UHGV virus genome: UHGV-0179013
Length of the DNA stretch: 42,129 nt
Direction: 5' to 3' (one strand)
Origin: a virus
A program made the position numbers and the translations under genes. This document shows, in pieces, positions 32,230-37,013 of this stretch. Numbering within the stretch: the stretch's first letter is position 1; each line of letters opens with the position of its first letter. Under the pieces are notes generated by a model. The model saw nothing but the letters and a program-made list of their open reading frames with translations. It had not been told where the DNA came from and did not search any database.

Positions 32230-32534
32230 TGCCCCCCCTCCCACTGCCATGACGGCATCAAAACAAAGCCCATAGGATCGCTGACCTTTGCACACCTAAC
32301 ATCACCTGGCTGCACAATCTCCATCCCGATGTATCCGGCACAAAGTAAGAGCTCAAGAGCAATGAAAAGCTCATCAACGGAGCAACAGCAGAATTCTGCG
32401 AATTCCGATACACTGAGATAACGAAAACCTGAACAATCGCAGCTACCGGACATCCAGATGCGGCACATAATCAGGCGATGAAGGGCGCTTTCAAAAGGAT
32501 GTTTATTGATAAAATCAGGGATAGACTTACTCAT
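32226..32534 (-). CDS. Hypothetical Cys-rich small protein
   Basis: 102 aa, stop/start overlapped on both sides; multiple Cys (CDCSGF, CCCS); function unknown. Confidence 0.35.
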   Translation of the reverse strand: MSKSIPDFINKHPFESALHRLIMCRIWMSGSCDCSGFRYLSVSEFAEFCCCSVDELFIALELLLCAGYIGMEIVQPGDVRCAKVSDPMGFVLMPSWQWEGGQ

Positions 32535-33379
32535 GCGGCACCTGCCAACTCTTTGTCGTGGGTAAATTCACCTTTCCAGCGCTTCTTCATCGGAAGATGC
32601 CCCTTGAGATAGTGTCGGTAAATCCATACCGCGCCTTTGCGCAGAAGGATCGGTTTGAATGTGTCACGCATCTCGCCGTCGTCCTGTTCTACTTGACCAG
32701 AACGCTCACTGAGGTAGAGATCGCGTGCATAGTGATGAACCCGCCAGCGCGGATATTTAGCCTTTGGCTGGTCGTCGTAGAGCCAGTTATGTTCGAACAA
32801 AAACGCATTAACCTGCTGGACGTTGACGCCGTTCAGCTGCTTACAGAACTGGCAAGGAGACATACCCGGCTGAAAGAGGTTTTCCAGGTGCTCGATGTAC
32901 TTTGCCTGTCGCTCGACGTATCCAAGCGCACGCCGGGCAGCTTCACGTTCGTCAGCCCATGCACGCGCAGCAGCCACCTCATCTGAGAAATCAGGCAGAT
33001 CTGAGTTAACCGCCACCAGCTTACCTGTGCGAAAGTCGAGGAAGGTCTGATTCACCTGCAAGCGGAATACTGGTGAGATCCACCCGGCATACTCAATGGC
33101 CAGCAGTTCGTGAGCGAAAGTGCCGCCATTCCTGCCTTCGTCTGAAACTATGCAAATCTGCACAGTTTCTTTTTCCAGCTCAGCGATTAGCGATTTAGCA
33201 GTTTGAGTGCGCAACCACTGGGCAGGGGCTTTGTTAGCACCAAGCCCACTCGCCTTGTGCAAAGCATTCAGGTTAAAACGCCCCTCAGCATCGGTAGTGA
33301 TTTCCACACCTGCAATAACAGGTAGGCTTTCAGCACCATTACTTGAATTATTCAGATGTTTATTGATATTATTTTTCAC
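32531..33379 (-). CDS. KilA-N domain protein with C-terminal ANT-like antirepressor domain
   Basis: 282 aa; N-terminal VIAGVEITTDAEGRFNLNALHKASG pattern of KilA-N domains; C-terminal region typical of phage antirepressor C-domains. Confidence 0.6.
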   Translation of the reverse strand: MKNNINKHLNNSSNGAESLPVIAGVEITTDAEGRFNLNALHKASGLGANKAPAQWLRTQTAKSLIAELEKETVQICIVSDEGRNGGTFAHELLAIEYAGWISPVFRLQVNQTFLDFRTGKLVAVNSDLPDFSDEVAAARAWADEREAARRALGYVERQAKYIEHLENLFQPGMSPCQFCKQLNGVNVQQVNAFLFEHNWLYDDQPKAKYPRWRVHHYARDLYLSERSGQVEQDDGEMRDTFKPILLRKGAVWIYRHYLKGHLPMKKRWKGEFTHDKELAGAA

Positions 33380-33690
33380 GAATTTACCTCGCCAGGTAGA
33401 TTTATGCAGGTATGAACAGTAGTGAAGTTAGAAAAGGCCGGTGAGGGAACCCATTCTCTTTCCGGCCTTTTTCTTGCCGTCTCTCCGATCTGCTGTTGTC
33501 GTCTGACCTTTAGCCCACTGGCGCGCGTAGTGAAGACAATCGTCATACGCCCTGCCTTTACGGGTTGCCTGCGACATCCGGCGGTAGTGGTCAACGCCGA
33601 TCTGCCCCCCCCCTGACACACCTGCTCAGAAAATCCCTCGGACGCCAGCTGCGCGGCAATATTCTTGCGAATAAAATCTACCGGATTCAT
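33376..33690 (-). CDS. Small early protein in cII position, reading frame ambiguous across a G9 homopolymer
   Basis: ATG at 33690 behind GGAGG RBS; the N-terminal 29 codons run into G9 (33605-33613), where a second frame (ORF 33428-33619) opens; as-is frame ends at an ATGA overlap with the KilA-N gene. Confidence 0.4.
   Translation of the reverse strand: MNPVDFIRKNIAAQLASEGFSEQVCQGGGRSALTTTAGCRRQPVKAGRMTIVFTTRASGLKVRRQQQIGETARKRPEREWVPSPAFSNFTTVHTCINLPGEVNS
33434..33475 (+). terminator. Plus-strand intrinsic terminator antisense to the early operon (oop-like antisense RNA 3' end)
   Basis: Roughly 15-bp interrupted stem (AAGGCCGG ... CCGGCCTT with inner GAGGGAA/TTCTCTT pairing) followed by TTTTTCTT on the plus strand; no plus-strand gene ends here. 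Confidence 0.45.
33605..33613. repeat. Homopolymer tract (C9 on plus strand, G9 in the coding strand) at a reading-frame junction
   Basis: Nine consecutive C at 33605-33613; a +1 nt change would fuse the ATG-initiated N-terminus to the alternative downstream frame. Confidence 0.9.
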
Positions 33691-33694
33691 ACTG

Positions 33695-34174
33695 TTATCC
33701 CCTCCAGAACATCAAATGAGACAGGATATGGAAAACCCGATCGCTAAACTTGCGCTTAACTACTGGTACAAAGTGCTTATTGCTGGCGGATTCTTTGTCT
33801 TCTTGGTGAATGGAACCGGGATCCTCACTGCATACCCGACAGCAGGTACTGGACTCATTTCCCTTGGTTGCGCTTTGTGGGGAGTCGGCGAATGGATTAA
33901 CCACCCCTACCAGGAGGTATTGATCCCCGGAGTTTTTGGCCGACCATCCGGGAAGCTGTCCGGTTACCCCAGAAAAGTCAGCTTGGCCGGTATTGCCTTC
34001 GATGTTATCGGTGGCGCCCTTATCGTCTTTGGAATTGTTAAATTGTTCCAATGACCACCCAATTAGACTTACACCCCCAGTAGCTGGATCGATAACTACA
34101 GACCCAGGAAACTTACGCTCAAGATCAACCAGCATCATCCTTAGCGCCTCAAGGTCAGAATATCGCTGTGGCAT
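33695..34174 (-). CDS. Hypothetical early protein immediately downstream of cro (159 aa)
   Basis: ATG at 34174 behind GAGGTG RBS, 2 nt after the Cro-like stop; low-complexity Gly/Ser/Asp-rich middle; fully overlapped by a membrane-like antisense ORF. Confidence 0.4.
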   Translation of the reverse strand: MPQRYSDLEALRMMLVDLERKFPGSVVIDPATGGVSLIGWSLEQFNNSKDDKGATDNIEGNTGQADFSGVTGQLPGWSAKNSGDQYLLVGVVNPFADSPQSATKGNESSTCCRVCSEDPGSIHQEDKESASNKHFVPVVKRKFSDRVFHILSHLMFWRG

Positions 34175-36010: not shown

Positions 36011-36307
36011 ATGCAAATGAATATTATCGTCAGAAATGAAGTCGTGAATAACAAAGCCCATCCAGCCAATCAGGATGACGACATTCTTTACATAAACAAA
36101 GCCCACAAAACAGCAGAGTGTGCCAATAAATATGCACATGAACTCCGTGCTGAATTTACCCAGTTGCTTATGCCAGCAATCACACGCACTGATGTGAAGG
36201 TAGCGGGAAGATTCACCTCATTACTTAATGAGCTTTGCTTCATGACAAAAATGACGATGGAGAACACCTCAAAGGGGGGGGGCAATAATGACGTTTCTGA
36301 AAGATAA
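36011..36307 (+). CDS. Hypothetical early protein (98 aa)
   Basis: ATG behind GAGGA RBS; AT-rich. Confidence 0.4.
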   Translation: MQMNIIVRNEVVNNKAHPANQDDDILYINKAHKTAECANKYAHELRAEFTQLLMPAITRTDVKVAGRFTSLLNELCFMTKMTMENTSKGGGNNDVSER

Positions 36308-36400
36308 AGCAGCACACAAGACAGCAAAACTTTTCGCCTCTTATGGAAATAGTTATCTGCATATTGCAAACCTTTTTCTGCGCAAGGCTTACGGGCGGTA

Positions 36401-36763
36401 GTGACAATGAAAAACAACATCATTGAAATTTATCGCCGCCGCATTGCTATTGCGACATTAAACCGAATGAAGCGCAAGACAGGAGGTTATTGTCTCTCCG
36501 TAAATATGCCCGATGACAATATTCAGGTTATCGAGATTAACGAAGAATCAATGCTGAAACTTTTGCTGCGCTTCGAAAAACAGGCTCGGACTGAATTCAA
36601 CACAGAAGCGGAAACATTTCTTCGCCAGACGTATATGAAAAGCGTCGATATCAATGGACACACCGAATATCTGACCGAAACCGGAAAGATGATTGTTGAC
36701 GAGATTTTTGCGGAATTAATTAAACACGCGAAAGAGAAATACGTATGTGGAGGAATTAACTGA
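36401..36763 (+). CDS. Hypothetical early protein (120 aa)
   Basis: ORF in early-left operon; stop overlaps next ATG (TGATG). Confidence 0.4.
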   Translation: MTMKNNIIEIYRRRIAIATLNRMKRKTGGYCLSVNMPDDNIQVIEINEESMLKLLLRFEKQARTEFNTEAETFLRQTYMKSVDINGHTEYLTETGKMIVDEIFAELIKHAKEKYVCGGIN

Positions 36764-37013
36764 TGGCCTCACAACAAACAATTATTCACGGAATGCAGAT
36801 CCCCCCCCAGTCCTCAACGTGGATCTGCATGTGCTTCCGGATTTCACCGGACGCGTGGTTCTTTACATCGAAAAAGGGCGTGTGACATGCGACCGCCGGC
36901 TGCTCGACGACGAACATATTTGCGCACTGGACACTTTTATCGAAATGGCCCGCGAAGCCGGGTTACGTATACAGGAGCTAACTGGTGGCACTGACAGCAA
37001 TTCGAATACCTGA
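36763..37013 (+). CDS. Hypothetical early protein whose ATG-initiated frame and long ORF are separated by a C8 homopolymer (frameshift or sequencing error or phase-variable)
   Basis: ATG at 36763 coupled to upstream stop; after C8 (36801-36808) this frame stops after 39 codons, whereas a +1 C would join it to the 88-codon ORF 36747-37013, which itself has only a GTG start. Confidence 0.3.
36801..36808. repeat. Homopolymer tract C8 at a reading-frame junction
   Basis: Eight consecutive C at 36801-36808. Confidence 0.9.

What the first reader, a model, noticed from the sequence alone, without database searches (positions are those of the whole stretch)
33376..33690. G9 homopolymer at the junction of two reading frames in the cII-position early gene
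A well-initiated ORF (ATG with GGAGG RBS at 33690) runs 29 codons into nine consecutive G (33605-33613), where a second frame opens. A +1 change in tract length would fuse the N-terminus to the other frame. This is either a homopolymer sequencing error or a slipped-strand phase-variable switch on an early regulator. A G7 tract also sits in the RBS of the replication initiator (32232-32238).
Basis: seen in the sequence. Interest (0 to 1): 0.45.

Follow-up and report, generated by a model that had tools for sequence, protein, structure and literature searches.

The report
Hypermutable poly-G switch in prophage gene
A run of nine G's splits a small early gene of a lambda-like prophage, and over a hundred related phages show this run changes length so often that the gene flips between intact and broken, like a stochastic on/off switch.

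Summary
G9 lies at 33605-33613 on the minus strand. It splits an 87-aa gene into a 104-aa aberrant ORF (33690->33376) plus a second frame. One extra G restores a protein that exists elsewhere with 100% identity.

This is not a one-off. The gene belongs to PHROG 4439 (function unknown; predicted three helices plus a disordered basic tail). It carries a G run at the same codons in prophages of Citrobacter, Salmonella, Klebsiella, E. coli, Serratia, Yersinia and Proteus.
- After deduplication, 42 of 80 loci with a run of at least 6 G are out of frame. Among homologues without the run, 0 of 30 are (p = 2.5e-8).
- Identical backbones carry runs of 5 to 14 G.
- 57 of 58 broken copies keep an intact downstream frame.

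The best explanation is a slipped-strand contingency locus (phase-variable ON/OFF), currently OFF in this window.

Two more early genes in the window carry equally variable tracts and are also OFF: G9 at 36274-36282 and C8 at 36801-36808.

I found no support for a "cII-like regulator" role. A sequencing error in this particular assembly cannot be excluded without reads. The mechanism is a known kind; this phage group and gene family appear to be undescribed.

The parts
33605..33613 (-). G9 homopolymer (C9 on the plus strand). This is the hypermutable tract, covering codons 26-29 of the gene. G10 or G7 would be in frame.
   Evidence: The tract is conserved at the same position in about 80 deduplicated related loci with lengths 6-11, and up to 14 in E. 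coli.
33428..33690 (-). The real gene, a PHROG 4439 family member. It would be 87 aa in the ON state (G10). In the window it is interrupted by a -1 nt frameshift at the tract.
   Evidence: The fusion is 100% identical to P0001. Single-ORF homologues exist in phages EKP1 and BZS1. PHROG 4439 matches at E=4.8e-29. The AF2 model has three helices plus a disordered tail, pLDDT 76.
33376..33690 (-). The ORF as it stands in the assembly, giving the OFF-state product of 104 aa: the first 28-29 residues are native, followed by an out-of-frame tail. Its TGA overlaps the GTG start of the downstream KilA-N/ANT gene (GTGA, 33379-33376).
   Evidence: It is identical to P0014, which was seen on 11 contigs.
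33701..33705 (-). GGAGG ribosome-binding site, 10 nt upstream of the ATG.
   Evidence: read from the sequence.
33432..33472 (.). GC-rich hairpin flanked by an A-run and a T-run, inside the last 14 codons of the gene (KKAGKRMGSLTGLF*). On the plus (antisense) strand it forms a canonical intrinsic terminator: a long stem followed by UUUUUCUU.
   Evidence: plus strand MFE -38.3 kcal/mol, z=-2.98. The 6-bp core is conserved with 3 compensatory pairs across 15 lineages.
33343..33372 (+). Promoter-like site (TTGAAT-18-TATTAT, with TG) pointing back into the gene. Together with the hairpin it would give an antisense RNA of about 100 nt, similar to oop. Inferred only.
   Evidence: A similar element has its -10 end 48-57 nt past the stop codon in at least 12 divergent lineages.
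36274..36282 (+). Second hypervariable tract (G9). It splits a 129-aa early-left gene (36011-36401) into ORFs of 98 and 37 aa. G8 or G11 would be in frame.
   Evidence: 34 loci, tract lengths 6-11, about 9 in frame and 25 out.
36801..36808 (+). Third hypervariable tract (C8), in the PHROG 340 gene (ATG 36763 to stop 37013). C9 or C6 would be in frame, so the gene is OFF in the window.
   Evidence: C9 is in frame in 10 loci and C6 in 3. C7, C8, C10 and C13 are out of frame in 13. Homologues with an interrupted tract are in frame in 27 of 28 cases.

Best explanation
The G run is a slipped-strand hypermutable tract, i.e. a contingency locus, inside a small accessory early gene (PHROG 4439) of a lambdoid temperate phage.

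How it works:
- Polymerase slippage during replication adds or removes G's.
- Lengths that keep the frame (here G7, G10 or G13) give the 87-aa protein: three helices plus a basic tail.
- All other lengths give either a peptide of about 30 aa or a fusion of about 100 aa with an out-of-frame tail.
- The window carries an OFF allele (G9).

Why the states accumulate: the early operon is silent in a lysogen, so tract length can drift without cost. A lysogen population then releases phage that are mixed for this gene on induction. The same applies to two further tract-bearing early genes in this phage.

Shown here: tract conservation, length polymorphism on identical backbones, frameshifts confined to tract-bearing copies, and intact downstream frames.

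Inferred: switching is frequent and reversible within a clone, the tract is kept by selection for bet-hedging, and the protein is dispensable. What the protein does remains unknown.
For: 1. G10 restores a protein seen elsewhere at 100% identity. The phage carrying it is 99.6% identical over 6 kb and has identical 800-nt flanks around the tract.
2. The run sits at the same codons in lineages down to about 45% aa identity and in at least seven genera.
3. After deduplication, loci with a tract of at least 6 are 42 out of frame and 38 in frame. Homologues with a tract of 5 or less are 0 out and 30 in. Fisher p=2.5e-8.
4. Allelic series occur on single backbones.
   - Citrobacter: G5, G8, G9, G10, G11 and G13, each on several contigs. 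The G10 OFF allele is on 103 contigs and the G8 ON allele on 37.
   - Salmonella: G9, G10, G12 and G13.
   - E. coli: G8, G9, G13 and G14. Three sibling STEC genomes differ only in G13 versus G14.
5. Among locus pairs with 0 mismatches in 800 nt of flank, 25 of 54 differ in tract length.
6. 57 of 58 OFF alleles keep an intact C-terminal frame of 50-59 aa.
7. The two or three glycine codons in the tract are almost always GGG. Other conserved glycines in the same gene use all four codons, and the background share of GGG is 18%.
8. Both out-of-frame offsets occur (18 and 24 loci).
9. Two other early genes in the same window behave the same way.
10. Some assemblies break exactly at the tract.
Against: - No reads were available, so heterogeneity within one culture was not shown.
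- Long G runs are error-prone on several sequencing platforms. Some of the length differences, for example G13 versus G14 in the STEC siblings, could be errors.
- All three tracts in the window are OFF. That has a chance of roughly 1 in 8 to 1 in 4 if the states are independent, but it could also hint at a systematic problem or at expression by slippage.
- The protein's function is unknown, so no phenotype can be tied to the switch.
- ON alleles exceed the neutral one-third (38 of 80, p=0.009), but the loci are not phylogenetically independent.
Confidence: 0.75

Rival explanations
1. Sequencing or assembly error. The true tract in this phage is G10 and the gene is intact; G9 is a homopolymer miscall.
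For: The window is identical to a short-read metagenome assembly (L005, MEGAHIT-style contig name). A 99.6% identical phage has G10. Contigs break at the tract in some assemblies, which shows the run is hard to sequence. All three long tracts in the window are out of frame.
Against: The same G9 product was called on 11 contigs, against 3 for G10. The errors needed at the three tracts would go in different directions (+1; -1 or +2; +1). Elsewhere, alleles differ by 2-8 nt on identical backbones and recur on tens to a hundred contigs, which miscalls do not explain. Homologues without a tract are never frameshifted.
Confidence: 0.12
2. Programmed recoding. The genome is meant to be out of frame, and the full-length protein is made from the G9 template by -1 ribosomal frameshifting on G GGG GGG or by RNA-polymerase slippage on the G run.
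For: A run of 9 G allows perfect re-pairing of tRNA-Gly in the -1 frame. OFF alleles are common, in some lineages the majority. A rare AGA codon follows the tract in the zero frame.
Against: There is no fixed frame relationship: 38 loci are in frame, 18 are offset by one and 24 by two. Cultured phages EKP1, BZS1, YeP1 and Proteus V3 encode a single ORF. No stable structure lies downstream of the tract (z=+1.26). From memory, bacterial transcriptional slippage is established for A/T runs, not G runs. Low-level leak by slippage may still occur in OFF alleles.
Confidence: 0.08
3. Ordinary pseudogene decay. The prophage is degrading and the frameshift is a permanent inactivating lesion that happened to hit a mutable run.
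For: Prophage genes often decay. A few alleles look locked OFF by an interrupted tract, such as L009/L086 with GGGGGGAGG out of frame. One OFF allele has a premature stop in the C-terminal frame.
Against: 57 of 58 OFF alleles have an otherwise intact gene. OFF and ON alleles share identical flanks. The tract itself is retained across deep divergence, although a single synonymous change would remove it. Neighbouring genes in the window are intact.
Confidence: 0.05

Closest known systems
Poly-G tracts in receptor-binding-protein genes of Campylobacter Fletchervirus phages (Sorensen et al. 2021, Cell Rep 35:109214; cited in PMC12823448 and PMC12633550)
   Same: A G run of 7-11 inside a phage coding sequence. 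Length changes switch the reading frame on and off and produce mixed progeny.
   Different: Those are virulent phages of a host that is rich in poly-G tracts. The genes encode receptor-binding structural proteins, and the phenotype (host range) was shown experimentally. Here the phages are temperate lambdoid phages of Enterobacterales, the genes are small early genes of unknown function, and the evidence is comparative only.
Contingency loci in T2/T4 (agt, rIIA) and other lytic phages (Gomez, Barrick & Waters 2025, bioRxiv, PMC12633550)
   Same: Homopolymer slippage gives reversible frameshifts in non-essential phage genes, interpreted as bet-hedging. That survey found SSRs enriched in regulatory and hypothetical genes.
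   Different: Those tracts are mostly A runs of 6-9 in lytic phages, with measured reversion rates. Conservation of a given tract across a protein family was not the point of that work. Here the run is G/C of 8-14, conserved at one codon position across genera, in prophages where the gene is silent during lysogeny.
Bacterial SSR contingency loci (Haemophilus, Neisseria, Campylobacter; Moxon's concept; from established knowledge and PMC4235727)
   Same: An intragenic mononucleotide repeat, allelic series of repeat numbers, ON/OFF switching by frame, and several independent loci per genome that give combinatorial 'phasotypes'.
   Different: The classical cases are host surface or restriction-modification genes in species that have many such tracts. 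Enterobacterales are considered poor in them, and here the loci are carried by the phage.
Lambda cII with its antisense oop RNA
   Same: The position in the rightward early operon, upstream of the replication genes. The gene's 3' end overlaps a terminator hairpin that works best on the antisense strand, with a promoter-like site just downstream.
   Different: There is no sequence, Pfam or fold similarity to CII. In Klebsiella phages a separate annotated cII precedes this gene. The antisense RNA is inferred, not shown.

Membership tests
SSR-mediated phase-variable (contingency) locus | A simple-sequence repeat lies within the coding sequence or promoter of the gene. | tested here: met
   G9 within codons 26-29.
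SSR-mediated phase-variable (contingency) locus | Repeat number is polymorphic among otherwise (near-)identical sequences. | tested here: met
   25 of 54 locus pairs with zero flank mismatches differ in tract length. Allelic series run from G5 to G14.
SSR-mediated phase-variable (contingency) locus | Repeat-number changes toggle between an intact and a truncated or aberrant product, while the rest of the gene stays intact. | tested here: met
   42 loci are out of frame and 38 in frame. 57 of 58 OFF alleles keep the C-terminal frame.
SSR-mediated phase-variable (contingency) locus | High-frequency, reversible switching within a clonal population. | not testable with these tools
   This needs reads or a fluctuation assay. 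The only indirect hints are sibling STEC genomes with G13 versus G14 and contigs that break at the tract.
SSR-mediated phase-variable (contingency) locus | The switch changes a selectable phenotype. | not tested
   The protein's function is unknown.
PHROG 4439 (phage protein family, unknown function) | Significant match to the family HMM over most of its length. | tested here: met
   E=4.8e-29, residues 1-73 against profile positions 1-73 of 74.
Lambda CII-type lysogeny activator | Sequence or fold similarity to CII (an HTH DNA-binding protein). | tested here: not met
   No Pfam hit. No PDB sequence hit other than spurious ones. No Foldseek hit at E<=0.001.
Lambda CII-type lysogeny activator | Located immediately after cro and before the replication genes, with an antisense oop RNA over its 3' end. 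| tested here: inconclusive
   It is the second gene after the cro-like gene. An antisense terminator and a promoter-like site are present, but no transcript data are available.
Programmed ribosomal frameshift or transcriptional slippage gene | A two-frame arrangement with the same offset is conserved in homologues. | tested here: not met
   Homologues are in frame in 38 of 80 cases, and both offsets occur.
Programmed ribosomal frameshift or transcriptional slippage gene | A stimulatory RNA structure lies downstream of the slippery site. | tested here: not met
   The 75 nt downstream fold no better than shuffled sequence (z=+1.26).

The most novel reading that the evidence does not exclude
A large group of lambdoid temperate phages of Enterobacterales carries a set of conserved poly-G/C contingency switches; this phage has three. 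They sit in accessory genes of both early operons.

Because these genes are silent in the lysogen, tract lengths drift freely. Each induction then releases a pre-diversified burst with combinatorial ON/OFF 'phasotypes'. This would be a phage-encoded bet-hedging system, for example against host defences that sense these proteins or require them to be countered. Selection for mutability itself would maintain it in hosts that are mismatch-repair proficient and otherwise poor in such tracts.
Probability: 0.4. Interest if true: 0.75.

Novelty: new member of a known kind. Interest (0 to 1): 0.6.

Why it matters
- It would extend phage contingency loci to temperate phages of E. coli, Salmonella, Klebsiella and Citrobacter. 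So far they have been shown only for Campylobacter phage receptor-binding proteins and, in a 2025 preprint, for A-runs in lytic T-even phages. It would also show that such a tract can be conserved across a whole protein family.
- It gives a handle on three early genes of unknown function. Genes that a phage keeps switchable are likely to be conditionally costly, for example triggers or antagonists of host defence, or modulators of the lysis-lysogeny decision.
- On the practical side, these tracts generate many spurious 'hypothetical proteins', such as the 104-106-aa out-of-frame fusions in RefSeq, as well as missing annotations and contig breaks. Prophage 'intactness' calls should not treat them as decay.

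Tried and rejected
- A megablast of the locus against complete E. coli genomes found nothing. The window is not from E. coli; its closest relatives are Citrobacter (L003).
- The genome-contig scan returned only one locus, so population data came from IMG/VR, metagenomes and the protein clusters.
- Function prediction led nowhere: no Pfam hit, no PADLOC hit, PHROG 'unknown', only spurious prion hits in the PDB sequence search, and no Foldseek hit against PDB or BFVD at E<=0.001.
- Rfam gave no family for the region.
- Dual coding, meaning selection to keep the out-of-frame tail open: the +1 frame is open in 40 of 58 tract-bearing versus 13 of 27 tract-less sequences (p=0.09). Not convincing, so rejected.
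- Translational coupling of the OFF-state ORF to the KilA-N gene through the GTGA overlap holds for this backbone, but OFF-frame ORF ends differ between lineages. I treat it as incidental.
- For a -1 frameshift stimulator downstream of the tract, no structure was found.
- RNAalifold on 3' ends from mixed lineages gave no consensus because the hairpins are in different registers. A single-lineage-group alignment with a named structure did show the conserved stem.
- The G7 in the replication-gene RBS was invariant in the 3 loci that carry it.
- Literature searches for this tract or family in lambdoid prophages found nothing relevant (one query was malformed).

Full report
**1. The observation**

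On the minus strand, the window reads ...GTG TGT CAG GGG GGG GGC AGA TCG..., with nine G at 33605-33613.
- An ORF starts at ATG 33690, 10 nt after GGAGG (33705-33701). It runs through the tract in codons 26-29 and continues for 104 codons to a TGA. That TGA overlaps the GTG start of the next gene, a KilA-N/ANT-domain protein.
- A second frame is open from 33619 to TAA 33428.
- G/C runs of at least 8 are over-represented in the window: 5 overlapping 8-mer matches against 1.0 expected in shuffles. All three such tracts lie within 3.2 kb of the low-GC early region.

**2. What the gene is**

- Two cultured phages, 'Elizabethkingia' phage EKP1 and Serratia phage BZS1, encode single ORFs of 86 and 91 aa. 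Each equals the N-terminus of the first frame plus the second frame.
- Adding one G gives an 87-aa protein that exists in the public protein collection at 100% identity (P0001). It is encoded by a phage that is 99.6% identical to the window over 6 kb (L004). The window's own 104-aa product is also there (P0014), on 11 contigs.
- The family is PHROG 4439, function unknown, with no Pfam or PADLOC hit.
- An AlphaFold model built on 109 homologues gives three helices and a disordered basic C-terminal tail (pLDDT 76). It has no significant structural neighbours and no PDB sequence relatives.
- The family has at least 344 clusters in Salmonella, Klebsiella, Citrobacter, Enterobacter, E. coli, Serratia and other genera.
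- In the window it is the second gene after the cro-like gene and lies upstream of the KilA-N gene and the replication genes. In Klebsiella phages it lies between the annotated cII and O genes.

**3. The tract across the family**

I collected 139 loci from IMG/VR, metagenomes, one reference genome and phage records. For each locus I determined the frame of the N-terminal part, the frame of the C-terminal part and the longest G run between them.
- The run is at the same codons in lineages down to about 45% aa identity, with lengths 6-11.
- After removing duplicates, 42 of 80 loci with a run of at least 6 are out of frame, with both offsets represented (18 and 24). All 30 homologues whose run is 5 or shorter are in frame (Fisher p=2.5e-8).
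- Identical backbones carry several lengths. For example, AGTGCCGCA-Gn-CTGAGCACGGC occurs with n=7-11, and GATGCCATCA-Gn-TAGAGCG with n=8-10.
- Among locus pairs with no mismatch in 800 nt of flank, 25 of 54 differ in tract length. These include the window (G9) versus L004 (G10), and EKP1 (G6) versus a metagenomic contig (G11).
- 57 of 58 out-of-frame copies retain an open C-terminal frame of normal length.
- The tract's glycine codons are essentially always GGG. Other conserved glycines in the same gene use all four codons, and GGG is 18% of glycine codons in the surrounding genes.

**4. Independent support from protein clusters and finished genomes**

- On the Citrobacter youngae/freundii backbone, the collection holds the following products:

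| Product | Tract | State | Contigs |
|---|---|---|---|
| QGVVG | G5 | ON | 2 |
| QGGVVG | G8 | ON | 37 |
| QGGGVVG | G11 | ON | 3 |
| QGGGWSELT | G10 | OFF | 103 + 15 + 8 |
| QGGGGWSELT | G13 | OFF | 4 |

  The type strain carries G9.
- Salmonella has G9, G10, G12 and G13 alleles of one backbone, from NCBI isolate assemblies. It also has partial proteins that begin right after the tract. One contig indeed starts at the first base after the run.
- In complete E. coli genomes, the homologue has G8 (EC11 and C5, where it is annotated as a 106-aa out-of-frame fusion), G13 (STEC307), G14 (STEC306 and STEC308, siblings with identical flanks) or an interrupted in-frame tract. Draft genomes carry G9, in frame.
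- Among cultured or induced phages, EKP1, BZS1, YeP1 and Proteus V3 are in frame. Citrobacter phage Omnitron and three Klebsiella phages are out of frame. The tract-less Erwinia and Pseudomonas D3-like homologues are in frame.

**5. Interpretation**

- The pattern is that of a slipped-strand contingency locus. The repeat mutates far faster than its flanks. It toggles an otherwise intact gene, and it is retained although one synonymous change would abolish it.
- Differences of 2-8 nt that recur on many contigs cannot be homopolymer miscalls, though errors surely contribute some noise.
- Programmed recoding does not fit. There is no fixed frame offset, many homologues are simple ORFs, and no downstream stimulatory structure exists.
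- Decay does not fit the intact downstream frames.
- The early operon is repressed in a lysogen. Tract length should therefore be nearly neutral there and be selected only during infection or induction. ON alleles are somewhat more frequent than the neutral third (38 of 80, p=0.009; the loci are not independent).
- The gene is probably dispensable, because out-of-frame alleles occur in phage records.
- Whether the switch is adaptive bet-hedging, and what the protein does, remain inferences.

**6. Wider context in the same window**

Two more early genes, both on the other (leftward) operon, show the same behaviour.
- G9 at 36274-36282 splits a 129-aa gene (36011-36401) into ORFs of 98 and 37 aa. 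Relatives have G6-G11, with about 9 of 34 in frame. Pairs such as L023 (G8, in frame) and L024 (G9, out of frame) share a backbone.
- C8 at 36801-36808 breaks the PHROG 340 gene that starts at ATG 36763. Relatives with C9 or C6 are in frame, those with C7, C8, C10 or C13 are not, and homologues with an interrupted tract are in frame in 27 of 28 cases.

The states of the three tracts vary independently among related phages. In the window all three are OFF.

**7. Comparison with what is known**

- Homopolymer phase variation is classical in bacteria.
- In phages it has been shown for poly-G tracts in Fletchervirus receptor-binding proteins (Sorensen 2021, cited in PMC12823448). In a 2025 preprint it was shown for A-runs in T2/T4 accessory genes, with poly-G runs noted in BPP-1 and PB1-like phages (PMC12633550).
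- My searches found no description of conserved poly-G/C switches in early genes of lambdoid prophages of Enterobacterales.
- I therefore file it as a new member of a known kind.

**8. Side observation on the gene's 3' end**

- The last 14 codons contain a GC-rich hairpin flanked by an A-run and a T-run.
- Its 6-bp core is conserved, with compensatory changes, across lineages whose peptide tails differ.
- On the antisense strand it forms a canonical terminator (MFE -38.3 kcal/mol, z=-2.98).
- A promoter-like element points back into the gene from about 50 nt past the stop codon in many lineages.
- This resembles the lambda cII/oop arrangement, but it is only inferred.

Noticed in passing
window 36011-36401, tract at 36274-36282 (+): A second poly-G tract (G9) splits an early-left gene of 129 aa into ORFs of 98 and 37 aa. 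G8 or G11 would be in frame. Across 34 related loci the run is 6-11 G and about three quarters are out of frame. The 37-aa C-terminal part is strongly conserved.
   Followed up: yes
window 36763-37013, tract at 36801-36808 (+): A third tract (C8) frameshifts the PHROG 340 gene, which starts at ATG 36763 and is coupled to the previous gene by a TGATG overlap. C9 and C6 alleles are in frame. C7, C8, C10 and C13 are not. Homologues with interrupted tracts (CCCCACCCC and similar) are almost always in frame.
   Followed up: yes
L017, L027, L067, L069, L070 and L126 near position 700; L012, L013 and L038 near position 715; L018, L025 and L065 near position 200: Further recurrent G tracts occur in the early-left regions of related prophages, with variable length. 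'ctcgtcccgtt-Gn-ctgatacatcgc' has n=9, 11, 12 or 14. 'catgttcccttt-Gn-caggagagtcgc' has n=8, 9 or 10. I did not identify the genes they lie in.
   Followed up: no
window 33343-33481 (+ strand): A possible oop-like antisense RNA of about 100 nt. A promoter-like TTGAAT-18-TATTAT lies at 33343-33372. It is followed by two predicted stem-loops, the second a canonical terminator (stem plus UUUUUCUU) that lies inside the last codons of the poly-G gene. A comparable promoter-like site is at a similar distance in many lineages. There is no Rfam match.
   Followed up: partly
window 33665-34054 (+) versus 33695-34174 (-): The 159-aa ORF called after the cro-like gene is overlapped on the opposite strand by a 129-aa ORF. 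That ORF looks like a small multi-pass membrane protein (MENPIAKLALNYWYKVLIAGGFFVFLV...). Gene callers chose different strands in different relatives. Neither ORF has a family hit. Which one is real is unresolved.
   Followed up: no
It was G7 in all three related loci that carry this sequence.
   Followed up: partly
L273 and L274 (E. coli EC11 and C5); L261 and L263 (Klebsiella phages); L265: Annotation side-effects of the tract. RefSeq annotates the out-of-frame fusion as a 106-aa hypothetical protein (WP_000186943.1). Other records annotate only the C-terminal fragment or nothing. Some draft contigs end exactly at the run.
   Followed up: partly
P0020 / L266-L269 versus L012: The Salmonella P0020 allele joins the N-terminal part of one lineage (MNPVDFIRKNIAAQLAAEGFSEQVAL) to a C-terminal part typical of another (…AEHGVDYYRR…). 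The junction is at the G run, which suggests the tract may also act as a recombination joint between gene modules.
   Followed up: no
L001 (OM284015.1): The phage recorded as 'Elizabethkingia phage EKP1' has an early region typical of enterobacterial lambdoid phages. It shares 800 nt of identical flank around the tract with an IMG/VR contig (L065), so the host attribution may deserve a check.
   Followed up: no
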